This document shows positions 34,144-54,633 of a stretch of 64,000 bases of DNA, one piece after another. The notes beneath the pieces were generated by a model. The model ran no database searches, was not told where the DNA came from, and worked only from the letters and a program-made list of their open reading frames with translations. Both the position numbers and the translations under genes were made by a program. The DNA is from a virus. The stretch lies in UHGV virus genome UHGV-0033085; one strand, given 5' to 3'. Each line of letters begins with the position of its first letter. Positions within the stretch are counted from its first letter, which is position 1.

Positions 34144-34147
34144 AAAT

Positions 34148-34180
34148 TATGCATTGGCGCAATGTACGCGCCAATGCATA
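34148..34180. terminator. perfect 13-bp inverted repeat between convergent genes (bidirectional terminator candidate)
   Basis: TATGCATTGGCGC-AATGTAC-GCGCCAATGCATA. Confidence 0.45.
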
Positions 34181-34195
34181 ACTACAGTGTCAGCT

Positions 34196-41518: not shown

Positions 41519-41717
41519 ACGGGAGAAGGAAACGCTTCATGAAATCAGTAAGTGGCCGGAGTTCCCTGAGTACTGGAAGCCTAAAACGCGAGCTAAGTTA
41601 GAGCGTTTAGGGTTGGTTGCAAACGTTTCTGAAACGTGGTGTTCGGCCAACTACCAGTTAACTGATAAAGGGAAAGTATTGCTACAGCAATTAGTAGAAT
41701 CAGGAGCGTTAAAATGA
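41502..41717 (+). CDS. hypothetical protein
   Basis: 71-aa ORF. Confidence 0.3.
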   Translation: MIVLSKREKETLHEISKWPEFPEYWKPKTRAKLERLGLVANVSETWCSANYQLTDKGKVLLQQLVESGALK

Positions 41718-41866
41718 TTCCATACATCTCATTAGCTTTTATGGGTGGCTTCCTTATCGGCTTCGGCATCTGTCGTGATTTAATTAAGCAGGAACTTAAA
41801 ACCAAAACACTGTGCATCGGAAAGCGTGTGTATCGGGTAGTTCATGAAACAAAGGTGAAAAAATGA
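41714..41866 (+). CDS. small membrane protein (50 aa, not in ORF track)
   Basis: ATGA-coupled on both sides; start is a copy of the ATGATTCCATAC half-site. Confidence 0.3.
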   Translation: MIPYISLAFMGGFLIGFGICRDLIKQELKTKTLCIGKRVYRVVHETKVKK

Positions 41867-42185: not shown

Positions 42186-42931
42186 TTTGTGTATAAGATG
42201 ACTTTGTTTTCGTTGAGACGCGACTGTTTGAACTTAAATACAAGTGCAAACGAAGAAGTCTATCTGGCAGTAGCCTAATAAGCCAAACACCAGCGAGGTC
42301 AGTTTCCAGCCTCGTTACCGAAATGGGACACACTGAGCGAGTGTGATTGCAGAACGCAGGAGGGAACATTCATGTTCCCTCCGATGAAGTAACAGAATGG
42401 GCGGTTGGTATATTTTCAACTCCATATGACTCCCGGATTCTTAGCCACTGACCGCCCATCCTGTTACGTCATTTTGTTCAATTATGTCGTTTATACTGGG
42501 TTAAAAAGCGGCGACGTAGCCCGGCTGGTATGGTTAGCCAGCACACAACGTTGAGGCCATTACATTTTTATCAATTCTAAGGTTCTATTCACAGAGATAC
42601 CGGCGAGCGTTGATATGTAACATGTTGGGCAAACATTCAATCGGAGTAGTGGCCTCAACGTTGTGAAGACAGGATTGTTGTGTAGGTTTAACCACTGTTG
42701 CCATTGGTGCCTGTTTTCACAACAAATGATTCCATACATCACATTGTATAAATTACAAAGTAGGTGCTGTCCTCAGAAACATCATCTACTTAAAGATTTT
42801 GCCTTCTACTATTGAGCGAAGTCGAAAGCGTCTGGCACTAACGAAAAGTGCAAGTAGCGGTGCGTTTCCTGGCAGAAACTAAACCGTCGCGATTGGCACT
42901 GTTGAGTAATAAATACTGGCAGTGCTGAATT

Positions 42932-43006
42932 GATGGTGTAGCTCAGCGGTAGAGCAGTTGGCTGTTAACCAACTGGTCGGTGGTTCGAATCCACCCACCA
43001 TCGCCA
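42932..43006 (+). tRNA. tRNA-Asn (anticodon GTT)
   Basis: Cloverleaf by hand: acceptor GATGGTG/CACCATC, anticodon loop CTGTTAA, T-loop GGTTCGAATCC, encoded CCA. Confidence 0.8.
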
Positions 43007-43011
43007 ATTTA

Positions 43012-43098
43012 GGGGAGTTAGTCCGTAGAGGTAGCGGTGTAGACTGTAAATCTACTGTCATGGCGACTCGGGTGGTTCGACTCCATCACTCCCCACCA
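43012..43098 (+). tRNA. tRNA-Tyr (anticodon GTA), long variable arm
   Basis: Acceptor GGGGAGT/ACTCCCC, anticodon arm GTAGA-CTGTAAA-TCTAC, T-loop GGTTCGACTCC, CCA. Confidence 0.75.
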
Positions 43099-43102
43099 AA
43101 TT

Positions 43103-43178
43103 GCCGGTTTAGCTCAGTTGGTAGAGCGCCTGCCTTGTAAGCAGGATGTCAGCGGTTCGAGTCCGTTAACCGGCACCA
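43103..43178 (+). tRNA. tRNA-Thr (anticodon TGT)
   Basis: Acceptor GCCGGTT/AACCGGC, anticodon arm CCTGC-CTTGTAA-GCAGG, T-loop GGTTCGAGTCC, CCA. Confidence 0.8.
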
Positions 43179-43541
43179 ACACAACAGGTAAGTGCATTGG
43201 GCGAATCGGCGATACTGACCCACAAGCCCGTAAATCGATAGAGTCAGACCAGTGCTCTTACCGTTGTGAGGAAGTGCAGCTCTTTGAGGCAACCAGAAGA
43301 TAAGCATCTGGCTTCACAACACAACGATAAGATCATTACGGTTAATCGTCGTTCATGTGCACAATGACTGGTCGAAAGGTAGTGATCTTACCGTTGTGGT
43401 GGATTCGCAGACTGATGCGATAGCTTTCTTGGATGTTAGGGAAATGCGGCCGCAAATCTTCCCTTTCGCGAGCGGTGATCGTCCGTAGTCCTAATTGGCT
43501 GCACCGTATGCCGGAGATTCAGTACCGGCCACCACAACGGC

Positions 43542-43628
43542 CGGAGAGTAGGGAGCATGGTGCTCAAGCGGTCTTGAAAACCGTCCCATTGCGCAAGCGA
43601 TGATGGTTCGATTCCATTACTCTCCGCC
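43542..43628 (+). tRNA. tRNA-Ser (anticodon TGA), long variable arm
   Basis: Acceptor GGAGAGT/ACTCTCC, anticodon arm GCGGT-CTTGAAA-ACCGT, T-loop GGTTCGATTCC, CCA. Confidence 0.7.
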
Positions 43629-43851
43629 AGACACAGCGTTGAGCGGTTTGGCCTTTTAATCACCCAGATTAAGACTCCGCTAACATAAACCAGACCGCTC
43701 AACGCTGTGATAGACAATTACGGCAGACGTTCTTAACCATAGCTTGCTAACATCCTAGCAACACTTTTTTTCAGCGCAAAATTCAAAGGGGCTTCGGCCA
43801 CTTTTTTTGCAACTGAAAGAGTCAAGTCTACGAACTTTGTAGGAAGAAATA

Positions 43852-44202
43852 ATGACCAGCAAAGAGAACACACCACTAAAAGTCACCCCTGAACACATTG
43901 AACAACTCATTCAAAGTGAACATTATTTCACTGCATATGATGCCAGCCACGGGGATAACTTCATCTCTGTTTACAATTCAAAAACAGATATCGACAAAGG
44001 TCATGAGTCGTTAAAACTCTTAACGTTCTGCGTTATGGTTCTCAAAAATGGATATACCGTAACGGGAAAATCTGCGTGCGTAAGACCAGAAATCTTCAAT
44101 TTTGATGTTGGTCGCGAGTACGCTCGAAAAGATGCTATCGATCAAATCTGGCCCCTGGAAGGCTATCTCCTGAAGCAAAAGTGGCATGAGGCAAAGCAAT
44201 GA
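43852..44202 (+). CDS. hypothetical protein
   Basis: 116-aa ORF, ATGA-coupled to downstream glutaredoxin-like frame. Confidence 0.4.
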   Translation: MTSKENTPLKVTPEHIEQLIQSEHYFTAYDASHGDNFISVYNSKTDIDKGHESLKLLTFCVMVLKNGYTVTGKSACVRPEIFNFDVGREYARKDAIDQIWPLEGYLLKQKWHEAKQ

Positions 44203-44444
44203 CGATCACTATCTACGGATGAGATAACTGCTCATACTGCAAACGTGCGGTCGAGCTGGCGAAGCAACTAAAGGGACATGGCTACGGTGATTATGAGTAC
44301 ATCGACATCACCACTGCCGGTATCAACAAGGAAAAACTAAGTGAAATTGTTGGTAAACCGGTAGAGACTATCCCCCAAGTGCTGATCGATGGCCAACCGA
44401 TTGGCGGATACACAGAACTGGCTGCATACGTCAGCACCCTCTGA
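44199..44444 (+). pseudogene. glutaredoxin-like gene (T4 NrdC-type CxxC) with in-frame TGA at codon 8
   Basis: Frame reads MTITIYG-TGA-DNCSYCKRAVELAK...IDGQPIGGYTELAAY; TGA at 44220-44222; no ATG downstream. Confidence 0.5.
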
Positions 44445-44448
44445 TTTT

Positions 44449-44475
44449 AACGGCTCACAGGAGCCGTTTTTATTC
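44449..44475 (+). terminator. rho-independent terminator
   Basis: CGGCTC-ACAG-GAGCCG followed by TTTTTATT. Confidence 0.6.
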
Positions 44476-44524
44476 CCACCAAACTCACTCCCGTTTCCCT
44501 TAAAATTCAAAAAACAACGTCAAA

Positions 44525-44555
44525 ATGATTCCATACCTACTATGTATGGAATCAT
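44525..44555. other. 31-bp perfect inverted-repeat site (12-7-12), candidate recombinase target
   Basis: ATGATTCCATAC-CTACTAT-GTATGGAATCAT, 100 bp upstream of tyrosine recombinase gene. Confidence 0.45.
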
Positions 44556-44654
44556 TACTGAAAATGAGTTACTTTTACTCTTGATCCTATAAGAATCTAT
44601 GCCTAATATACTGTTTACTTATACAGTGCATCGGCGTAACTCGGTGATTGTCAT

Positions 44655-45758
44655 ATGAAAAATAGCTTTGACAGAGCACGCGCTGCGGAGAACACCTCAA
44701 AAGAGGCGATTGAGTATCTCGAAAGAGCATCTCAAATGCAGGCCGTTATGATCTCCCAGGTCAGCAATGACATGAGATTCTCGGACGCATTCATGTTATT
44801 CACTCGCTTATCTCTGCTGATAACAAGACGTCGGCCAGAGATCGCTGTTCATTGTATTTTGATACATGTTTTGCCGCACATTGCCGATGTAAAAGTAAGT
44901 GACATTAATAGGTTCATGGTGAACCAACTGGTCAACCCACTAATACTGGATGGCAAAATTGTTATGGGCCGCCGCGTTTTCTCTCTGATGAAGCAGTTCC
45001 TTAGCTGGTGCGCCTTCCAGGGGATGATAGACGTGTCACCGTTAAACGATATGTCACTTAACAAAGTTGCCGGTGGCGCAAAGCCCACACCTCGCGAGCG
45101 GAAGCTGACCGACGCAGAGGTATGGGTGTTCTGGAATATATGGGACTACTTCAATGTGTGCGCTGGTACAAAATGGGCGGCCAGGCTGTGTCTTGTATCC
45201 GCAAGACGACCTGACGAAGTACTGCGTGCTAAAAAAAGTGAGTTCAATCTTAAGCGTGGGGTTTGGAATCAAGGCAAGAGGAACAAATCTGCCCGTGAGC
45301 ATTCGCTGCCTTTAAGCACATTAATGCGCACATGTATTGAAGAGTTGTTCGAATACGGTAAAGGCAGCCAGTGGCTCGTGCCTTCGAATAAAAAAATCGG
45401 GAAAGACCTTCCTATGTCTAAAGTGGCAATAGCCCAGGCATTACGTCGTATTCTGGAACGACCAGAACTGATGGAGCTTGAGCCATTTACACCCCGAGAC
45501 TTGCGCCGTACTGCGCGTAGTTACTTCCCAGCATTAGACATAAGCCAGGAGGTATCACGCAAAATCATGAACCACAGTCTTGAGGGGATAGATCGAGTCT
45601 ACGACCGGCACGATTATATGGACGAGATGCGAGACGCCTTAGAAAGTTTCTCGACGTACATCGCATCAATCGTAGAGCAACCGGATTTAGACGAAATTGA
45701 CCACAAATTCAAGGGAGATCGTCTATCAACAGAGCTTATTCGTGTAAATTTTTCATAG
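44655..45758 (+). CDS. tyrosine site-specific recombinase (integrase/resolvase family)
   Basis: C-terminal catalytic pattern: R in LRRTARSY, H in MNHS, Y in RVYDRHDY. Confidence 0.75.
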   Translation: MKNSFDRARAAENTSKEAIEYLERASQMQAVMISQVSNDMRFSDAFMLFTRLSLLITRRRPEIAVHCILIHVLPHIADVKVSDINRFMVNQLVNPLILDGKIVMGRRVFSLMKQFLSWCAFQGMIDVSPLNDMSLNKVAGGAKPTPRERKLTDAEVWVFWNIWDYFNVCAGTKWAARLCLVSARRPDEVLRAKKSEFNLKRGVWNQGKRNKSAREHSLPLSTLMRTCIEELFEYGKGSQWLVPSNKKIGKDLPMSKVAIAQALRRILERPELMELEPFTPRDLRRTARSYFPALDISQEVSRKIMNHSLEGIDRVYDRHDYMDEMRDALESFSTYIASIVEQPDLDEIDHKFKGDRLSTELIRVNFS

Positions 45759-46139
45759 AGACTTTATGGCCTCAACAACCTTTTGTGATGCGCCTTTCTC
45801 TTTACCGAATCGCTCGTTATATGCAGCAAGAACCTGTTTTTCGTCCTCGTTAAGAGGAGCGGTGCCTTCTTTGTATAAAAATGCTGCGAGTTCAGGTTGG
45901 CGTTCTTCCAGCACCATCATCATAAGACGACTTGGCTCAATACCCAGCGCCAGCGCCAACGGACGAACCTTATCGATAGGCAAAGGAATTTTGCCACTTT
46001 TAATTAAAGAAAGGTTGTTGGCATTTTTATAACCAATAAGTCTGGCTATTTGGGCCTGACTCATAGGTGAGGATTCAATCAGCCCTGCGATAAAAGCAGC
46101 ATAGCGACTTTCTATAAATTCAATCTTGTTGTCAGACAT
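45753..46139 (-). CDS. XRE-family HTH transcriptional regulator (candidate repressor)
   Basis: HTH segment MSQAQIARLIGYKNANNLSLIKSGK; convergent with recombinase. Confidence 0.6.
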   Translation of the reverse strand: MSDNKIEFIESRYAAFIAGLIESSPMSQAQIARLIGYKNANNLSLIKSGKIPLPIDKVRPLALALGIEPSRLMMMVLEERQPELAAFLYKEGTAPLNEDEKQVLAAYNERFGKEKGASQKVVEAIKSL

Positions 46140-46700: not shown

Positions 46701-48809
46701 ATGTCTAAAAAACGTTCCATCAAAGAGGTTCAGGACTTCCGTGACAGTGTAAAACGAGTAGTCGCTCTCCTTTCAGGTAAAAACATCCCTGTTGCAGAAC
46801 GAGGGGACGACGCTTATGTACGCTATAACGATGATGGAGAGCCAATTCTCGTAAACATCCCATCAATCCCGGATAACGCAACACCGGCATTGATGAATGC
46901 TGTGCGCGGATTTCTCGATCATGAGGTTGCTCACATTTTGTTTACCGATATTCGTGTGTCCAACAAAATGAGAGAAAAAGGACGCGTTCCTTCCTGGTCG
47001 CTATGGAATGCCTTAGAAGACGTGTTCATCGAGCGAAAAATGGGTCAGGTCTTTAACGGAACAAGACGTAATCTGATGGCAACTCAGCGCCTTATAATCG
47101 AAAAAGTCTTTAAACCAAAGGCTTCAGAGGCTATTGCTTATTGTGGCAAAGATCAGCGCGCGCTTTTTCTAAACTTCTTTCTCTGTCCGGTTGTAAGAGC
47201 CTGGGATGGCCAAGCACCGTTCGTAGATTTCATGGATGAACATTGGCCTGTCATTGAGAAACCAATTTCATTATTAAAAGAACATGGTATCGATGTGGCC
47301 GTGCGTAACATGTCTTGCACCGAGGATTGTGTAAAGGTGGCTGCGACCATAGCTAAGATCCTCAAAGACACTGAAAGTGAAAGCAAAGGTAAGGAGTCAG
47401 CTCCGGGAAAAACTTCCGATCCTTCAGACGCTGACCAGACGGATGCCTCTGGAGAAAACAATGAAGACAACGAAGATCATGAGACACCCTCAGCGTTAGA
47501 TAATCACAAATCTATCAAATCAGAATCACATAGTAAGTACAAACATGATAATAACGACAGTGATGATTCAGATAATTCTGAATCATCAGAAACAATATTC
47601 GATGATACAGAAAATGATAAAGAGGTATCAGATTCTGATGCTTCTGATAACGCGGCGTCAGAATCATTAACCGCTGACCACGAAAAAAGAAAAACGACAG
47701 AAGACGGCTCTTCAGATATCCCAACTCCGTCAAAAATGAGTCTGGAAGAGGCTTTAGAGGAGTTGGATAGCATGGAAGATGAAGTCGGAGGCATGACAGA
47801 AGATGCGCTATCCGAAACGATTAAAAGCGAGTTAACAGAAAGCTCGAAAAGCGAATACAGGCCATACAATCGCTCATACGACTTCATCGGCTCGATTGAT
47901 CAGGCAGAAGCCCATATCAAACGGCTTATTAAAACATTCTCCGATATTGATTTGGGAGGATATCCAATCAGCCGCTATCGCATCGTTCCTGAAGGCAACC
48001 AGCTCTTCGACAAATATATTGAAAAGCATCTTTCGTCAGGTGTTTCGTCGACGCTGGCAAAAGACCTGGAGCGAGCAATAGCAAGCAGAAACAGAGTTCA
48101 GTTTATACCGGGCCAGCGTCGGGGGCGCATTCATGGTTCTAGTATCTACAGATTAGCAATGAATGATGCTCGCGTGTTTCGTAAAAAAGAAGAATCTAAA
48201 GCCGTTAACGCCTGTGTTCAACAAGTGATTGATTTATCAGGTTCAATGAGTGGTATAACGATTAAACTGGCTCTTGCAAGTGCATATACCATCGCCGATG
48301 CCCTTGATCGAATAAATGTTCCCAACATTATCACCGGCTTCACTACATTTGGTAGTCATATGGCGGCAGGAGAACTTAAGGCTGTCAAGTATGAGTTCTC
48401 TCGCTTTGAATCTTTAATGCTACCTATCATCAAAAATTGGAATGAAAAGGTAAATTCTCGCGAAGTTCGCTCACGTATGGGGTGCGTAGGCTACACATTC
48501 CCACTTCTTAATAACGTGGATGGTGAAAGCATAGCCAGCCTTGCATCGTTATTTTCCGGTCGCTTGGAGGACAGGAAGATCATGCTTGTTCTGAGTGATG
48601 GCGCGCCGTGGGCTGTTGGGAGAGGTTTTGACGCTCATTTGCGTTCAGTTGCGAAGCAAATTGAAACGCAGACTGATATTGATTTGATGGCAATTGGCAT
48701 CATGACTGACGCACCGGAGAGATTTTACTCAAATCATGCCCTGGTAACGAGCGTTGATAGTCTTGGTTCATCTGTAGTTACTGAACTATCTCGTATCATT
48801 TTAAAGTGA
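46701..48809 (+). CDS. CobT-like protein with C-terminal vWA domain
   Basis: MIDAS motif DLSGSMSG; long Asp/Ser/Glu-rich acidic middle region; adjacent to AAA+ partner. Confidence 0.6.
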   Translation: MSKKRSIKEVQDFRDSVKRVVALLSGKNIPVAERGDDAYVRYNDDGEPILVNIPSIPDNATPALMNAVRGFLDHEVAHILFTDIRVSNKMREKGRVPSWSLWNALEDVFIERKMGQVFNGTRRNLMATQRLIIEKVFKPKASEAIAYCGKDQRALFLNFFLCPVVRAWDGQAPFVDFMDEHWPVIEKPISLLKEHGIDVAVRNMSCTEDCVKVAATIAKILKDTESESKGKESAPGKTSDPSDADQTDASGENNEDNEDHETPSALDNHKSIKSESHSKYKHDNNDSDDSDNSESSETIFDDTENDKEVSDSDASDNAASESLTADHEKRKTTEDGSSDIPTPSKMSLEEALEELDSMEDEVGGMTEDALSETIKSELTESSKSEYRPYNRSYDFIGSIDQAEAHIKRLIKTFSDIDLGGYPISRYRIVPEGNQLFDKYIEKHLSSGVSSTLAKDLERAIASRNRVQFIPGQRRGRIHGSSIYRLAMNDARVFRKKEESKAVNACVQQVIDLSGSMSGITIKLALASAYTIADALDRINVPNIITGFTTFGSHMAAGELKAVKYEFSRFESLMLPIIKNWNEKVNSREVRSRMGCVGYTFPLLNNVDGESIASLASLFSGRLEDRKIMLVLSDGAPWAVGRGFDAHLRSVAKQIETQTDIDLMAIGIMTDAPERFYSNHALVTSVDSLGSSVVTELSRIILK

Positions 48810-50320: not shown

Positions 50321-52684
50321 ATGAAGGCACTGATGGTTCGAACTGACTTCTCACTTGGGGAGTCGGCTCTAAAAGCAGAAAACGCGGTGAAGATTGCCAG
50401 AGAAGCTGGCTACACCGCTGTAATTTCAGCAGATAGCATGAATATTGCGAGCGTTATTCCACTACAACGTGCCGCTGGTGACGACATGGCGGTTATTTGT
50501 GGTGTGAAACTAAACATTGTTGATGATCCCACATACGAGCACCGGGCTAAACTTGCTAAAGAATCTATGAGATGTATGGAATCATTAGAGCGAGGACGTA
50601 ACTACTCGTTTACCGCTCTAATTAAAAATGAGAAAGGATATCGCGACATCTGCGAACTAATGACGGCGGCCAACACACGAGAACAGTTCTACTTTGTACC
50701 GCGTCTCTCGCTCGAACAGTTGGTTTCTACATATGCCAAAGGCAACATCATCCTGCTTACTTCCGACATCGGTAGCGTGTTCCAACGCAACGATTTTGCA
50801 AAAATCATAAGCACACTGATTACAGCGGGTGGAAAAGACAACTTCTATAGTGTGGTTTATCCGCACCCTACCCCATTCTACGACCAGATTAACGTCCGGG
50901 CGATGAAAGTCGCCAGCGCATTGAAAATAGAGCCAGTGGCGTTCTATCCCGCTTATTACGAATCGATCGACGATGCAGACATTAAAGACATTGCGCACAT
51001 GGTTACGAACAACATCAAAATCGACCAGCCGCATCGTCTGCGTATCCCCCACCAGCGAGATAACGCCGTCAATGGTCGCCGCCATCTCCTTGAGGCGCTT
51101 AAAGCCTTCTCCGTTCGCATGGATGTGCCGGTAACAGCTGCAATGGCCTCAACAACGCAGGATACCATTATCGATGCCTGCACATGGCGCTGGCATGAAT
51201 TGCCGCCAGCACTGCCAAAGATGGCAGACGACGAGCCTGCAACGCTGATGAAACTGGCTGTTGCAGGGCTGCGTAAACGTCTTACCACAAAAGAGTTTGG
51301 CTACACACCACCTGCTTCTGAGAACAGGGTTTATGTTGAGCGGCTAAAGTACGAAATGGACACGCTGACTCGCCTGGGATTCTGTGGTTACTTCCTGATG
51401 GTGCGCGATCTGATGAATCATAGTCGTGAAACTGGCATTCCCGTTGGGCCTGGTCGTGGTTCCTCTGCCGGTTCTCTGGTGGCGTGGTGCATAGGCATAA
51501 CCAACGTCGACCCAATCCGTCACGGTCTTCTGTTTGAGCGTTTCATCAACCCTGAGCGTCTCGACTTGCCGGATGCGGACTTGGACTTCAGCCAGGCACG
51601 TCGCCATGAGGTGATCGAGTATCTGAATGAACGCTACGGCGAAGATTACGTTGCAGGCATTCCGAACTTCACCTACCTGGGCGCAGCCTCTGCACTACGT
51701 GATACCGCTCGTATTTATGGTGTGGAGTCCGCAGATATGGCGGTATCAAAAGAGCTGAAGAACGTCGAGGATGATAGCCTTCCATTGGAGGAGCTGCGCG
51801 AACAACTGGCAAGTCTCGACAAATACGCAACAAAATATCCTGATGCATTCAATGCAGCCTGCAAGTTACAAAGCCTTATGCGTGGCTTTGGTAGACATGC
51901 GGCAGGGATGATCGTAGCAGGTGTTCCTCTGACAGAACGTACACCGGTTGAACGCCGTGGTGACGCGCGTTGTATCGCATTTGACAAGCGTTACTGCGAG
52001 GCTATGGGCCTAATTAAGCTGGACGTACTCGGTCTGGCAACTCTCGATTTGCTCGATAGTGCAAAACGCTACATAAAAGAGAACACAGGTGAAGATATCA
52101 ATCTTGATGCCATTTCTCTTGAAGATCGCAAGGTGCTGGATGGTTTTGCTGCAGGGTATACACAGGGCGTATTCCAGCTTGAATCAGGCCCAATGCGCAA
52201 GCTGCTTAAAGATTTAGGTGGTGGAATTGAGCCAATGAGCTTTAAAACGGTCGTCGCTACAACTGCGCTCTTCCGACCTGGCCCGATTCAATCCGGCATG
52301 TTGGACGATTATGTGTCCGTGGCCAAAGGCTTCATGGCCCCACATTCCTTACACCCAATGCTGGACGACATCTCTCGCGACACAAACGGAGTTCTGATTT
52401 ATCAGGAACAGATCATGGCTGCTACGCGAATCTTGGCGGGGTTCTCAATGGCGGAAGCAGACTCGGTCAGGAAAGCGATCGGGAAAAAAGATATGGAGAA
52501 AATGAAATCCATTGGCGGCGACTTCATTAAGCGAGCGGAGGAAGGCTGGGTGACAGTGTCACTGGATGATGGTTCTACGAGAAAAATCCATAAAGCAGCA
52601 CGCCTACTTTGTGCTGATGGTGAGCGTCGCACTTATGCCGAAGCAATGGCAATAAATGCCGACATAACGAGCTTCGATATTTGA
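50321..52684 (+). CDS. dnaE: DNA polymerase III alpha (DnaE-type), N-terminal fragment; last about 45 codons non-homologous
   Basis: PHP-like N-terminus; core motif GPGRGSSAGSLVAWCIGITNVDP, LLFERFINPER, DADLDF; homology ends near 52546. Confidence 0.8.
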   Translation: MKALMVRTDFSLGESALKAENAVKIAREAGYTAVISADSMNIASVIPLQRAAGDDMAVICGVKLNIVDDPTYEHRAKLAKESMRCMESLERGRNYSFTALIKNEKGYRDICELMTAANTREQFYFVPRLSLEQLVSTYAKGNIILLTSDIGSVFQRNDFAKIISTLITAGGKDNFYSVVYPHPTPFYDQINVRAMKVASALKIEPVAFYPAYYESIDDADIKDIAHMVTNNIKIDQPHRLRIPHQRDNAVNGRRHLLEALKAFSVRMDVPVTAAMASTTQDTIIDACTWRWHELPPALPKMADDEPATLMKLAVAGLRKRLTTKEFGYTPPASENRVYVERLKYEMDTLTRLGFCGYFLMVRDLMNHSRETGIPVGPGRGSSAGSLVAWCIGITNVDPIRHGLLFERFINPERLDLPDADLDFSQARRHEVIEYLNERYGEDYVAGIPNFTYLGAASALRDTARIYGVESADMAVSKELKNVEDDSLPLEELREQLASLDKYATKYPDAFNAACKLQSLMRGFGRHAAGMIVAGVPLTERTPVERRGDARCIAFDKRYCEAMGLIKLDVLGLATLDLLDSAKRYIKENTGEDINLDAISLEDRKVLDGFAAGYTQGVFQLESGPMRKLLKDLGGGIEPMSFKTVVATTALFRPGPIQSGMLDDYVSVAKGFMAPHSLHPMLDDISRDTNGVLIYQEQIMAATRILAGFSMAEADSVRKAIGKKDMEKMKSIGGDFIKRAEEGWVTVSLDDGSTRKIHKAARLLCADGERRTYAEAMAINADITSFDI

Positions 52685-52732
52685 GAATTAATTTATAAGA
52701 TAAGAAAACAATTTGTTTAGTGAGTCTTAGAA

Positions 52733-53467
52733 ATGCCGAGTACGAAGTACAAAATCACAGAAGAATGGTTACGTCAGCGTTACATGGTTGACCTGATGAG
52801 AAAAGAAGACATTGCCGCCGAAGCTGGTTGCAGCAAGGCAAATATTGACCGCTTATTAGCCAAATGGGGGATCAGGCGCGGAAGCGCGCGGATCTCCGCT
52901 ACCCCAGCCTGGAATCGTGGCAAAAACAAAAATAATGACGAACGTATGAAGCGTCTCTCCGAAGCCCGGACTGGCACTGGCAACCCTATGTATGGGAAAA
53001 CCTCGTGGAATGCCGGTCTGCGTGCTGATATCGATGAGCGAGTGGCCACCGTTTCGAAAAAGCTAACCGGCAGAACAATCCGCGCGGAGACGAAGGAAAA
53101 GCTGGCGGCTGCCAAACGTGGAAAGATCGGAGAAGAAGCGAACAACTACAAAGGTGGCATCATCGTAAAAACCAACGGCTACATGATGCAGCTGGTTGGT
53201 AACAATGGCGTTTCGCAATACGAATACGTTCATCGATTGATAGCGAAAGAACGTCTCGGTCGGGAGCTACGTGACGATGAACATGTCCACCATATTAACC
53301 GCGATACGATAGATAACGCCCCTGGGAATCTTGTAGCACTTCCAGAAGACGCCCACATTCGCCTGCATAGTGAAATGCGTGAAGAGATATGGAGCTGGGA
53401 GCGCCAACGGAACTGGCTGGCCTCCAATGGGTATGAGTTCGTGAAGATTGATGAGGTGACTGCATGA
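52733..53467 (+). CDS. HNH homing endonuclease (NUMOD-like repeats + HNH)
   Basis: HNH motif HHINRDTIDNAPGNLVALPEDAHIRLH; repeated GKxxWNxG / KRLSEARTG-type motifs. Confidence 0.8.
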   Translation: MPSTKYKITEEWLRQRYMVDLMRKEDIAAEAGCSKANIDRLLAKWGIRRGSARISATPAWNRGKNKNNDERMKRLSEARTGTGNPMYGKTSWNAGLRADIDERVATVSKKLTGRTIRAETKEKLAAAKRGKIGEEANNYKGGIIVKTNGYMMQLVGNNGVSQYEYVHRLIAKERLGRELRDDEHVHHINRDTIDNAPGNLVALPEDAHIRLHSEMREEIWSWERQRNWLASNGYEFVKIDEVTA

Positions 53468-54633
53468 AAATTACCGGTGTTGTCGAAGAGAGCAATGGCC
53501 TGACGCACGAACGAGCCGAAGAAATCTGGAATATGTTTGAGAAATCCGGCGCGTATGCCTTCAACAAATCACACTCTGTTGCTTACTCCTTAATCAGTTA
53601 TCAATCTATGTGGTTGAAAACTCATTATCCCGCGGAGTTCTTCGCTGCTGCTCTCACTATTCTTGGCGAAGATAAACACCAGGGGCTGGTTAAAGATGCG
53701 CTGACCTATGGTATTCGCGTATTGCCACCAGACGTTAACGTGTCATCTAACCGAATCGAGATCCGCACGCTTGAAGATGGCAGCCAGGTGCTGTATGCGC
53801 CCTTCTCTGCTGTGAAAGGGTGTTCTGAGAATGGCTGCCAAGCCATCATGAGAGCGCGAGAAAAAGTTGGCGGCAAATTCGAGTCACTGGCGCAATTCGA
53901 AGAAGCTGTCGAGAAACGTGCCTGTAATAGTCGAGTGCGCGAATCGCTGCAAAAAGTAGGGGCGTTTGCATCCATCGAGCCAGGTAGTCTGCCAGCAACT
54001 GATCCAGAGCGCCTACGCGACCAGGCTGAATTGATGGGAAACCTTGTCATAGACGCAGTTAAAGCCTCACGTCCGTTTGAGATGAACCCCAAACGTTCGG
54101 CTGAGATTAACGTACTCATGACGCGGATGGCGGCTGAAATGGGCTTAGGTGATGAACTAATCCGCCCCAGCATTGGTATTAAGCCGAAAATCATGATCAT
54201 TCTGGACAATGCGAACGGCAATGATGCTCGAACCGGTTACTTTATGGAGAACGGATACGACGATTTTAAGGCCAAGCTGTTGACGGCTGGGGATTTGCGC
54301 ATGGGCGATCTCTATGTCACAGGCGTTTGCAAAAAGGTGAAAGACAAAGAAAAGGACTACACCAAAGACGAGATCGGCCAGTTCACCGACTTTATGCGTG
54401 AAGAGATCAATCTGGTGCGCCCGACCTATGTGCTGACGTGTGGTAGCCGGGCAACGGCATTGTTTAACAACAAAAACAAGCCATCCGATTTGGTCGGCAG
54501 GAAGGAGTATCTTCCAGACCTTGACGTTACTGTCTTTTACGGGTTTAACCCCAACATTCTTTACTTCAGACCTGAAGAGGGAGAACGACTAGAAGCGATA
54601 TTAGCCGACGTAGCAGAAACTATTAAGTCGTGA
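53464..54633 (+). CDS. dnaE: DNA polymerase III alpha (DnaE-type), C-terminal fragment
   Basis: Motif YAFNKSHSVAYSLISYQSMWLKTHYPAEFFAA; own ATG with GAGGTG upstream. Confidence 0.8.
   Translation: MKITGVVEESNGLTHERAEEIWNMFEKSGAYAFNKSHSVAYSLISYQSMWLKTHYPAEFFAAALTILGEDKHQGLVKDALTYGIRVLPPDVNVSSNRIEIRTLEDGSQVLYAPFSAVKGCSENGCQAIMRAREKVGGKFESLAQFEEAVEKRACNSRVRESLQKVGAFASIEPGSLPATDPERLRDQAELMGNLVIDAVKASRPFEMNPKRSAEINVLMTRMAAEMGLGDELIRPSIGIKPKIMIILDNANGNDARTGYFMENGYDDFKAKLLTAGDLRMGDLYVTGVCKKVKDKEKDYTKDEIGQFTDFMREEINLVRPTYVLTCGSRATALFNNKNKPSDLVGRKEYLPDLDVTVFYGFNPNILYFRPEEGERLEAILADVAETIKS

What the first reader, a model, noticed from the sequence alone, without database searches (positions are those of the whole stretch)
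44525..44555. 31-bp perfect inverted-repeat site next to the tyrosine recombinase, with two extra half-site copies
ATGATTCCATAC-CTACTAT-GTATGGAATCAT (12-bp arms, 7-bp spacer) lies 100 bp upstream of the tyrosine recombinase gene, matching the architecture of lox/dif/att core sites. The same 12-mer arm ATGATTCCATAC, preceded by AA(A), also occurs at 41714-41725 and 42725-42736, in the same orientation, bracketing the small-ORF / structured-RNA / tRNA island. This could be a dimer-resolution or integration site, with the extra half-sites as accessory or relic sites marking a cassette.
Basis: partly seen in the sequence, partly recalled or inferred. Interest (0 to 1): 0.6.

Follow-up and report, generated by a model that had tools for sequence, protein, structure and literature searches.

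The report
Recombinase target site in a phage-plasmid
The 31-bp palindrome is very probably the DNA site cut and rejoined by the neighbouring recombinase of an SSU5-like phage-plasmid, most likely to keep plasmid copies as monomers, and three extra single-arm copies nearby are strictly conserved for a reason not yet known.

Summary
A perfect 12-7-12 palindrome lies at 44525-44555, 99 bp before a tyrosine-recombinase gene.

The window is an SSU5/pHCM2-type phage-plasmid, 98% identical to E. coli phage Cyrano. In about 115 related elements the palindrome always sits 45-101 bp upstream of an Int homologue. Both arms are invariant down to 57% Int identity. They change symmetrically in more distant homologues (GTGATTCCATAC, then A/GTGACTCCAGAC) while the 12-7-12 layout stays. 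The spacer varies by clade.

The pair also occurs on non-phage megaplasmids that lack the neighbouring repressor. In 5,426 complete E. coli genomes, all 255 copies are on plasmids and none is chromosomal.

Best reading: this is the core site of a simple, two-domain recombinase used for plasmid multimer resolution, as Cre/loxP is. Its promoter carries a conserved LexA box. An attP role, an operator role and a cassette marker are not supported.

The single-arm sites (ATGATTCCATAC+ATC) are not relics. They are invariant in 65-75%-identical backgrounds, including at synonymous positions in dnaE, and all point toward the palindrome. Their role is unknown.

The parts
44525..44555 (.). Core site: left arm ATGATTCCATAC (44525-44536), 7-bp spacer CTACTAT (44537-44543), right arm GTATGGAATCAT (44544-44555).
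   Evidence: The site was found with a 7-bp spacer in 101 viral and 7 genome loci. An Int homologue lies next to it wherever the locus reaches far enough. The arms co-vary symmetrically in distant homologues.
44498..44524 (+). Semi-conserved left flank box (consensus about cAGAtTTcAAAAAA plus 9-10 variable bp). Sequences become unrelated between lineages to the left of it, so it marks the right edge of the cargo slot.
   Evidence: aligned unique left flanks. (homology with relatives resumes at 44506-44524).
44581..44609 (+). Putative int promoter: TTGATC (44581-44586), 17 bp, TAATAT (44604-44609).
   Evidence: Read from the sequence. Conserved in the 82-100% clades, with TTGACC in the GTG clade. 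It scores below the threshold of the consensus scanner, so it is inferred.
44609..44628 (.). LexA (SOS) box-like site TACTGTTTACTTATACAGTG, overlapping the -10 and start region of the int promoter.
   Evidence: It is the only CTGT-N8-ACAG in the 64 kb. A CTG-N10-CAG box is kept at the same place in all 82-100% Int clades and in the GTG-arm clade, with the full CTGT-N8-ACAG form in most of them.
44655..45758 (+). Tyrosine recombinase (Int), 367 aa. Putative catalytic residues are R185, K211, R281 (in place of the usual His), R284, H307 and Y316.
   Evidence: Pfam Phage_integrase and Phage_int_M. Alignment A1. AF2 model with pLDDT 84 and an all-helical N-terminus. Best structural matches are lambda Int 75-356, Tn1549 Int, IntI and Xer.
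45753..46139 (-). Convergent HTH protein (putative lysogeny repressor), overlapping the int 3' end by 6 bp. It is a neighbour, not a required partner of the site.
   Evidence: Weak Pfam HTH_19 hit. Annotated as putative repressor CYRAN_45 and expressed in lysogeny (PMC9928086). Absent next to int and its palindrome in Erwinia, Pantoea and Rahnella.
41714..41728 (+). Single-arm site 1: ATGATTCCATAC+ATC. It coincides with the start codon of a 50-aa ORF (MIPYI...).
   Evidence: Invariant in backgrounds of 66-100% identity.
42726..42740 (+). Single-arm site 2: ATGATTCCATAC+ATC. It is non-coding, between a conserved structured block and tRNA-Asn.
   Evidence: The 12-mer is invariant in every int-carrying genome examined (the +ATC tail varies in three E. 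coli-lineage relatives, ATT or ACC). The only mutated 12-mer is in int-less SSU5 (ATGATTCCGTAC). It becomes GTGATTCCATACATC in the clade whose palindrome arms are GTG....
50571..50585 (-). Single-arm site 3 (plus strand GAT GTATGGAATCAT) inside dnaE codons for C-M-E-S, pointing back toward the palindrome.
   Evidence: In the 12-mer 0 of 12 columns vary, against 31 of 51 around it. Third codon positions vary at 1 of 5 inside and 17 of 17 outside (p=7e-4). Both the CMES peptide and the site are absent in the three genomes whose arm differs from ATGATTCCATAC.
45261..45272 (-). Degenerate arm-like sequence inside int (TTGATTCCAAAC, 2 mismatches). It is closer to the consensus in the Klebsiella clades (TTGATTCCATAC+ATC/ATT). 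Its significance is doubtful because it codes for VWNQ.

Best explanation
The 31-bp palindrome is the core recombination site of the adjacent tyrosine recombinase. One Int monomer binds each 12-bp arm, and strand exchange occurs across the 7-bp spacer.

The element is a circular plasmid prophage of the SSU5/pHCM2/pMT1 type. The most likely job of the pair is the one Cre/loxP does for P1: converting plasmid multimers, made by homologous recombination, back to monomers so that the low-copy plasmid segregates stably.

Int is a simple two-domain enzyme with a helical core-binding domain and a catalytic domain. It has no lambda-type arm-binding domain.

Its promoter lies between the site and the gene and carries a LexA box, so Int should be made at a low basal level and induced by DNA damage.

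The three single-arm 15-mers are bound by the same protein, but they are probably not recombination partners.

Shown here:
- existence of the site;
- strict linkage of site and gene;
- co-variation of the arms with Int;
- exclusively plasmid location;
- purifying selection on the single-arm sites.

Inferred:
- binding and cleavage by Int;
- resolution as the biological role;
- LexA control.
For: (1) Layout. The 12-7-12 arrangement is what tyrosine recombinases use. The model's best structural match, lambda Int, uses a 7-bp overlap (general knowledge), and Rci sfx sites are 12-7-12 (PMC11852207).

(2) Linkage. In 101 viral and 7 genome loci found by the arms alone, every locus with enough flank has an Int homologue of 57-100% identity starting 45 or 96-101 bp from the site.

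(3) Co-variation.
- Homologues of 58-59% identity have GTGATTCCATAC on both arms.
- Homologues of 44-50% identity (Providencia, Xenorhabdus, Erwinia, Pantoea, Rahnella) have A/GTGACTCCAGAC on both arms.
- Apart from the outermost base in some, the arms stay symmetric, and the layout is always 12-7-12 upstream of int.

(4) The pair occurs without the HTH neighbour on an Erwinia 106-kb contig and on Pantoea (508 kb) and Rahnella (723 kb) replicons.

(5) The spacer differs by clade (CTACTAT, CTATTAA, TTGGTAG, TTGTAAG, TCTTTAG, TTATATA and others) and can even flip between near-identical elements (L002 versus L050). This is tolerable only if the site recombines with copies of itself.

(6) In complete E. 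coli genomes there are 255 copies, all on plasmids and none chromosomal. The two-armed site was found in only 7 contigs of 185,579 species genomes, each with int beside it.

(7) Int is the only site-specific recombinase annotated in Cyrano. Cyrano also encodes RecA-, UvsY- and gp32-like recombination proteins and has about 5.5 copies per cell (PMC9928086).

(8) All 822 related PLSDB plasmids differ from SSU5 at the tRNA-Asn/CobT junction. SSU5, isolated as a phage, has lost int and the repressor there.

(9) Catalytic residues are conserved, and the fold is that of a tyrosine recombinase.
Against: - No recombination product was observed. No cointegrate or resolved pair with a junction in the spacer was found.
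- LexA repression of a housekeeping resolvase is unusual and might point to a role in induction instead.
- Int was not among the Cyrano genes listed as expressed in lysogeny.
- The conserved single-arm sites and the semi-conserved left box have no counterpart in Cre/loxP, so the system does more than simple resolution, or does it differently.
- Some homologues lie on 0.2-0.9 Mb contigs whose nature I did not resolve.
Confidence: 0.6

Rival explanations
1. Shufflon-like or cassette-like system. The single-arm sites are asymmetric recombination sites, as sfx sites are for Rci. Int would recombine them with each other or with the palindrome to invert or excise the tRNA, cargo, int and dnaE segment, or to capture cargo.
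For: - Rci sfx sites have exactly this layout: a 12-bp variable arm, a 7-bp core and a 12-bp conserved arm (PMC11852207).
- In the E. coli lineage, sites 1 and 3 share 19 bp (ATGATTCCATACATCTCAT) in inverted orientation.
- The cargo slot abuts the palindrome.
- The single-arm sites are under selection.
Against: - The 7 bp after the arm are not shared between sites in other lineages. Only ATC is conserved.
- The palindrome spacer differs from the half-site spacers.
- 242 of 243 E. coli plasmids are collinear across site 3. No genome joins a half-site flank to the palindrome.
- No second site lies at the far edge of any cargo.
- Int is not an Rci-family protein by HMM.
Confidence: 0.12
2. The pair serves the phage side of the life cycle rather than plasmid maintenance. 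After SOS induction or infection, Int would circularise terminally redundant DNA or process concatemers. Alternatively, LexA-controlled transcription from P_int mainly acts as antisense to the convergent repressor gene.
For: - A conserved LexA box sits on P_int.
- int converges on the repressor gene and overlaps it.
- Cyrano is induced 39-fold by ciprofloxacin (PMC9928086).
- Cre has a comparable second role in P1 (general knowledge).
Against: - SSU5 was isolated and deposited as a phage although it lacks int and the site.
- The same pair occurs on non-phage megaplasmids.
- The 57-62% clade and the distant homologues have no LexA box.
Confidence: 0.15
3. The palindrome and its single arms are operators of a transcription factor: the adjacent HTH repressor, or the 71-aa protein encoded just before site 1.
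For: - The palindrome lies 26 bp upstream of the -35 of P_int.
- The repressor gene is a neighbour in all phage-plasmids.
- Site 1 overlaps a start codon.
Against: - The palindrome persists, with arms co-varying with Int, where no HTH gene is nearby.
- The centre-to-centre arm spacing of 19 bp does not fit a dimeric HTH operator.
- The motif occurs only within about 9 kb of int, not at other promoters.
Confidence: 0.06
4. The palindrome is an attP core for integration into a host chromosome.
For: - The gene is annotated as integrase.
- The fold is closest to lambda Int.
- The 7-bp spacer matches the overlap length of lambda-type sites.
Against: - 0 of 255 E. coli copies are chromosomal.
- No two-armed site exists outside these elements in 185,579 species genomes.
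- Perfectly symmetric arms and a freely drifting or flipping spacer do not fit a fixed attB.
- The model has no arm-binding domain.
Confidence: 0.04
5. The palindrome is only a hairpin, acting as a transcription terminator or an RNA structure.
For: The strand folds well as a hairpin (-11.9 kcal/mol, z = -7.7).
Against: - The arms are conserved in sequence, not merely in pairing.
- No T-run follows, and the terminator scan does not call it, whereas the real grx terminator is at 44449-44468.
- The same arm recurs as single copies.
Confidence: 0.02

Closest known systems
Cre/loxP of phage-plasmid P1
   Same: - A tyrosine recombinase without an arm-binding domain.
- A single simple palindromic site (arms plus an asymmetric spacer) near its gene.
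- Carried on a plasmid prophage and never integrated.
- The role proposed here is the one established for Cre: multimer resolution (P1 role cited in PMC7969092).
   Different: - The layout is 12-7-12 (31 bp), not 13-8-13 (34 bp).
- Int has no detectable sequence similarity to Cre. Structurally Cre is only a weak match (Foldseek E about 0.02), against lambda Int at 2e-7.
- The site is 99 bp from the gene.
- The promoter is LexA-controlled.
- Conserved single-arm copies lie kilobases away.
Rci/sfx shufflon of plasmid R64
   Same: - An identical 12-7-12 site layout.
- Natural sites in which only one 12-bp arm (plus core) is conserved, as in the three 15-mers here (PMC11852207).
   Different: - Here a fully symmetric site exists as well.
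- The single-arm sites share only 3 bp of the spacer.
- They are 1-6 kb apart, and no inversion variants are seen.
- Int is not in the Rci family by HMM.
TnpI/IRS of Tn4430 and TnpI of Tn5401 (from my own knowledge, not checked here)
   Same: - A tyrosine recombinase resolution site just upstream of its gene.
- It is built from an inverted pair of roughly 12-bp motifs plus extra single copies of the same motif that act as accessory or regulatory sites.
   Different: - In those systems the accessory copies lie within about 100 bp of the core, or in the transposon ends.
- Here they are 1.8-6 kb away, on both sides, and one sits inside a coding region.
Lambda Int core site (COC')
   Same: - The best structural match for the core-binding and catalytic domains (TM 0.75 to residues 75-356).
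- A 7-bp overlap region.
   Different: - The model has no N-terminal arm-binding domain.
- The arms are perfectly symmetric.
- No attB and no integrated forms are known.
XerCD/dif, cer and psi
   Same: The proposed function is the same (multimer resolution), and the site is likewise two arms around a short spacer.
   Different: - This is a single self-encoded recombinase with identical arms, not two host enzymes with different arms.
- No adjacent 150-200-bp accessory region was identified.

Membership tests
Tyrosine-recombinase core recombination site | Two inverted recombinase-binding arms of about 9-13 bp flank a 6-8-bp spacer. | tested here: met
   Perfect 12-bp arms and a 7-bp spacer.
Tyrosine-recombinase core recombination site | The site is linked to, and co-evolves with, a catalytically competent tyrosine recombinase. 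| tested here: met
   Int lies next to the site in every locus with enough flank. Both arms change symmetrically with Int divergence. The R-K-(R)-R-H-Y residues are conserved and the fold is confirmed.
Tyrosine-recombinase core recombination site | Int binds the arms, cleaves at the arm/spacer borders and exchanges strands. | not testable with these tools
   This needs EMSA or footprinting and in vitro or in vivo recombination assays.
Plasmid multimer-resolution system (Cre/loxP-like) | The element is maintained as a plasmid and is not integrated. | tested here: met
   All 255 places in complete E. coli genomes are on plasmids. Relatives are deposited as circular records.
Plasmid multimer-resolution system (Cre/loxP-like) | There is one site per replicon, and only self-by-self recombination is needed, so the spacer is free to drift. 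| tested here: met
   One full site per locus. About 12 spacer variants follow the clades and flip orientation.
Plasmid multimer-resolution system (Cre/loxP-like) | Loss of the recombinase or the site raises multimer levels and lowers plasmid stability. | not testable with these tools
   This needs genetics. The only indirect support is that none of 822 related PLSDB plasmids shares SSU5's int-less junction.
Phage attP / integrative system | Integrated copies exist, flanked by attL and attR, and there is a chromosomal attB. | tested here: not met
   There are 0 chromosomal copies in 5,426 E. coli genomes. Only 7 two-armed sites were found in 185,579 species genomes, all next to int.
Phage attP / integrative system | The integrase has an N-terminal arm-binding domain, and arm-type sites flank the core. 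| tested here: not met
   The N-terminus of the AF2 model is all-helical, and there is no Pfam arm-binding domain. Distant homologues at 25-34% identity do carry PF13356, but this clade does not.
Shufflon (Rci/sfx) inversion system | There are several asymmetric sites with a conserved arm and a conserved 7-bp core in inverted orientation, and the intervening DNA is found in alternative orientations. | tested here: not met
   The arm is conserved, but only 3 of the 7 core bp are shared. 242 of 243 plasmids are collinear across site 3. There is no Rci-family HMM hit.
Integron-like cassette platform | Cargo units are each bounded by recombination sites next to the integrase's primary site. | tested here: not met
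   Cargo blocks have no site at their distal edge. The cargo junction lies about 27 bp left of the palindrome, and the left edge varies after tRNA-Asn.
Repressor operator | The site is linked to a DNA-binding regulator and overlaps its target promoters. | tested here: not met
   The palindrome persists without any HTH neighbour. In the main clades it sits upstream of, not over, the predicted int promoter.

The most novel reading that the evidence does not exclude
The three single-arm 15-mers are working sites of a second activity of the recombinase. Damage-induced Int would bind, and perhaps nick or loop, single arms that all point toward the core site. One of them is written into the dnaE reading frame. 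In this way Int would couple the SOS response to control of the replication, tRNA and cargo module, or would impose a long-range architecture that makes recombination selective for resolution. That would be a tyrosine recombinase with dispersed, polar, kilobase-distant accessory sites, which no characterised system that I know of has.
Probability: 0.2. Interest if true: 0.8.

Novelty: new variant of a known kind. Interest (0 to 1): 0.62.

Why it matters
SSU5/pHCM2/pMT1-type phage-plasmids are common in Enterobacteriaceae, present in about 5% of complete E. coli genomes here. They carry resistance genes (PMC9600943) and virulence genes. Their maintenance functions are poorly known, and phage-plasmids are usually said to lack integrases (PMC12977533).

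This work assigns a probable function and an exact target to their integrase. It also shows that the site marks the fixed edge of the main cargo slot. In the Yersinia pestis contig that slot holds the F1 capsule operon.

The analysis gives a natural series of related recombinase/site pairs: ATGATTCCATAC, GTGATTCCATAC and A/GTGACTCCAGAC arms, with several spacers. These could become orthogonal 31-bp tools alongside Cre/loxP.

The conserved, polar single-arm sites are an unexplained feature, and binding and genetic assays can test it directly. One of them constrains synonymous positions and the peptide sequence of a DNA polymerase.

Tried and rejected
- Rfam scan of 41-47 kb: only the tRNAs and an insignificant tmRNA-like hit, nothing at the sites.
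- Literature searches for the 12-mer, SSU5 integrase or tyrosine recombinase, and pMT1/pHCM2 integrase: no description of this site.
- Sequence search of Int against the PDB: no hit at E<=1. NCBIfam gave only a weak P4-type integrase domain hit, far below its cutoff.
- I searched for deletions or inversions with junctions at the half-sites. None was found in seven relatives, in about 110 left flanks, or in 243 E. coli plasmids across site 3.
- Origin of the extra half-site in PhiR41_1 cargo (L116:14622): that stretch has no match in E. coli genomes.
- Half-sites in the Providencia and Xenorhabdus elements (own arm ATGACTCCAGAC or GTGACTCCAGAC): none within +-10 kb. Co-variation of the half-sites therefore rests on a single base change (A to G) in one clade.
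- Homology breaks exactly at the palindrome edge first looked like evidence for Int-mediated cargo capture. I rejected this because the 27 bp to the left form a semi-conserved box shared by unrelated cargos. The sharp edge is better explained by selection on the site.
- Reading the spacer flips (L002 versus L050; L052) as recombination products: standard strand exchange cannot flip a spacer between unchanged flanks. Template switching at the hairpin is as likely. This remains unresolved.
- The nature of the 0.2-0.9 Mb contigs carrying close homologues is not resolved. The look-up returned only contigs of about 106 kb and 12 kb with the same neighbours.

Full report
**Observation.** The window holds ATGATTCCATAC-CTACTAT-GTATGGAATCAT at 44525-44555. 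The exact 12-mer occurs five times: 41714(+), 42726(+), the two arms at 44525(+) and 44544(-), and 50574(-). With one mismatch allowed, 0.41 matches are expected, and none of 100 shuffles reached five. Relaxed searches add only a two-mismatch copy inside int. The part of the closest relative examined beyond the region matching the window (48 kb) has no copy. The motif is therefore confined to about 9 kb around the recombinase gene. Perfect palindromes with arms of 12 bp or more are rare in the window: there are three.

[quoted passage not shown] It is 70-78% identical to Klebsiella phage-plasmids and Salmonella phage SSU5. The gene order is DNA ligase, small ORFs, a conserved non-coding block, tRNAs (Asn, Tyr, Thr, Ser), variable cargo, the palindrome, int (44655-45758), a convergent HTH gene, a 70-aa ORF, CobT, CobS and dnaE.

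**The palindrome belongs to the recombinase.**
- A scan of IMG/VR for the two arms, allowing 5-9 bp between them, gave 101 loci, all with 7 bp. A scan of one genome for each of 185,579 species gave only 7 loci, in Kluyvera, Chimaeribacter, Buttiauxella and a 108-kb Yersinia pestis contig.
- Wherever the locus extends far enough, an Int homologue of 57-100% identity starts 45 or 96-101 bp from the site.
- More distant homologues were fetched by protein. All keep a 12-7-12 palindrome upstream of int, but both arms have changed.
  - The 58-59% clade has GTGATTCCATAC.
  - The 44-50% homologues have A/GTGACTCCAGAC. These come from Providencia and Xenorhabdus phage-plasmids, an Erwinia 106-kb contig, and 508-kb Pantoea and 723-kb Rahnella replicons.
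- Apart from the outermost base in some of these homologues, the change is the same on both arms. A symmetric change in a kept layout is the signature of a protein-binding site that co-evolves with its protein.
- The HTH neighbour is missing in the Erwinia, Pantoea and Rahnella contexts. The partner protein is therefore Int.

**The protein.** Pfam finds the catalytic and central domains. The alignment keeps R185, K211, R281/R284, H307 and Y316. The AF2 model has pLDDT 84 and an all-helical N-terminal half, with no beta arm-binding domain. Its best structural matches are lambda Int residues 75-356, Tn1549 Int, IntI and the Xer proteins. Cre is a weaker match. There is no PDB hit by sequence.

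**Role.**
- Integration is not supported. In 5,426 complete E. coli genomes the int-site segment occurs 255 times in 252 genomes, always on plasmids. No orphan two-armed site exists in the species genomes.
- The spacer differs between clades and is found in both orientations relative to int. L002 and L050 have the same flanks on both sides but opposite spacers, and L052 carries the flipped form of its clade's spacer. A fixed chromosomal partner could not tolerate that, but recombination between copies of the same site can.
- Int is the only site-specific recombinase annotated in Cyrano. Cyrano also encodes its own RecA-, UvsY- and gp32-like proteins and has about 5.5 copies per cell (PMC9928086).
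- SSU5 was isolated as a phage and lacks cargo, int and repressor. Its tRNA-Asn/CobT junction is found in none of 822 related plasmids.
- Together this favours multimer resolution, the role of Cre/loxP in P1 (PMC7969092). I found no paper that describes the site.

**Regulation.** Between the palindrome and int lies TTGATC-17-TAATAT, followed by TACTGTTTACTTATACAGTG. That is the only CTGT-N8-ACAG in the window. Both elements are conserved in all 82-100% clades and in the GTG-arm clade. The 57-62% clade instead has the palindrome 45 bp from the ATG, with a -10-like TATGCT just after it. That geometry would allow autoregulation. LexA control is inferred, not shown. It fits the ciprofloxacin inducibility of Cyrano, but it is unusual for a resolvase. 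I therefore keep a rival in which the pair, or transcription from P_int into the convergent repressor gene, serves induction.

**The cargo slot.** Close relatives lose homology with the window between 43008-43198 and 44506-44524. Aligned left flanks show that the last 27 bp or so before the palindrome form a semi-conserved box (about cAGAtTTcAAAAAA). Otherwise unrelated cargos share this box. The sharp edge is best explained by selection on an extended site, not by cassette capture. No cargo has a second site at its far edge. The slot holds different cargo in different elements:
- Gp49 and glutaredoxin in the window;
- a highly expressed moron in Cyrano;
- colicin with its immunity protein and ParE/Phd in Xenorhabdus;
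- Acb2 in Klebsiella;
- PhoH and Ail/Lom in Citrobacter;
- a chaperone-usher operon in PhiR41_1;
- caf1M-caf1A-caf1, the F1 capsule operon, in the Y. pestis contig.

**The single-arm sites.**
- All three carry ATGATTCCATAC followed by ATC.
- Extraction by position, not by motif, shows the 12-mer unchanged at sites 1 and 2 in backgrounds of 66-100% identity. The one exception is site 2 of int-less SSU5. The ATC tail is also unchanged at site 1, and at site 2 it varies in only three E. coli-lineage relatives.
- In dnaE the codons TGT ATG GAA TCA never vary, while 31 of 51 surrounding columns and 17 of 17 surrounding third positions do.
- The encoded peptide CMES, and the site, are absent from the three genomes whose palindrome arm differs from ATGATTCCATAC. 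The DNA motif appears to dictate the peptide.
- In the GTG-arm clade, non-coding site 2 is also GTG.... This single co-variation links the single arms to the same protein.
- In every locus the left copies are on the int-sense strand and the right copies on the other strand (73 and 35 cases, no exception). All of them point toward the palindrome. Most are orthologous positions, not independent events.
- They are not relics.
- They are also unlikely to be recombination partners. Only 3 of the 7 spacer bases are shared across lineages. The palindrome spacer is different. 242 of 243 E. coli plasmids are collinear across site 3, and the one exception is a split at the end of a circular record.
- The closest precedents are the one-armed 12-7-12 sfx sites of Rci (PMC11852207) and, from my own knowledge, the accessory repeats of TnpI. 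Neither matches the kilobase distances or the coding-region location. Their function remains open.

**Verdict.** The integration, relic and cassette readings are not. The Int-site pair is a new member of the simple tyrosine-recombinase systems. The conserved, polar, dispersed single-arm sites and the LexA control make it a new variant, and an experiment is worthwhile.

Noticed in passing
window 44581-44628: A LexA-box-like site (TACTGTTTACTTATACAGTG) overlaps the -10 of the putative int promoter. It is conserved across most Int clades. int converges on the HTH repressor gene and overlaps it by 6 bp, so SOS-induced transcription would run antisense to the repressor.
   Followed up: partly
L111:40-3890 (Yersinia pestis NCTC5923 contig), palindrome at L111:4520: The F1 capsule operon (Caf1M chaperone, Caf1A usher, Caf1 antigen; Pfam E=1e-92) occupies the cargo slot and ends about 630 bp left of the palindrome. 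PhiR41_1 has a chaperone-usher operon plus an AraC-type regulator in the same slot (L002:905-5599).
   Followed up: partly
L006:9917-10153 (SSU5): SSU5 joins tRNA-Asn almost directly to CobT and lacks cargo, int and repressor. None of 822 related PLSDB plasmids has this junction. SSU5 therefore looks like a deletion derivative, possibly the reason it behaves as a lytic phage. Its site 2 is the only mutated half-site (ATGATTCCGTAC).
   Followed up: partly
window 44220-44222: The GrxA-like glutaredoxin gene (44199-44444) has an in-frame TGA at codon 8 where Cyrano has CGA (Arg). It is a pseudogene or a sequence variant in this element.
   Followed up: yes
window 42204-42474: Long blocks of non-coding sequence are identical in the window, SSU5 and a Klebsiella phage-plasmid that are otherwise about 75% identical. 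This suggests a conserved structured RNA between the small ORFs and site 2. There was no significant Rfam match.
   Followed up: partly
window 42932-43629: The tRNA cluster (Asn, Tyr, Thr, Ser) is 82-94% identical to tRNA clusters of P1, P7, D6 and many P1-like E. coli plasmids. It is therefore shared between two unrelated phage-plasmid groups.
   Followed up: no
window 34147-34181: A second perfect palindrome with a 7-bp spacer (TTATGCATTGGCGC-AATGTAC-GCGCCAATGCATAA, 14-bp arms) lies between the end of the ParA operon and a convergent gene. It may be a partition site or a bidirectional terminator.
   Followed up: no
window 47561-47588: A perfect 12-4-12 palindrome, TGATGATTCAGA-TAAT-TCTGAATCATCA, lies inside cobT. 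Its arms share ATGATTC with the Int arm. It is not conserved in SSU5 or Klebsiella relatives, so it may be chance.
   Followed up: partly
window 50321-54633: dnaE is split here into ORFs of 787 aa and 389 aa with a 244-aa ORF between them. Cyrano has one 3507-bp gene. This could be an inserted mobile ORF or a disruption.
   Followed up: no
L002:6002-6032 versus L050; L052: The 7-bp spacer is found flipped between otherwise near-identical elements (ATAGTAG versus CTACTAT; TTAATAG versus CTATTAA). Both cases have palindromes extended to 15-17 bp. The mechanism is unclear: template switching at the hairpin or antiparallel synapsis.
   Followed up: partly
window 45261-45272; L126:10607; L007:6736: An arm-like sequence lies on the minus strand inside int, coding for VWNQ. 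It has 2 mismatches in E. coli but only 1 in the Klebsiella clades, followed by ATC (L126, L122) or ATT (L007). It could be a fourth single-arm site or a coding coincidence.
   Followed up: partly
L125:14481-16802 (Xenorhabdus): The CobS-like AAA_5 gene of the Xenorhabdus element carries a LAGLIDADG_3 domain. This suggests an intein or a homing-endonuclease insertion.
   Followed up: no
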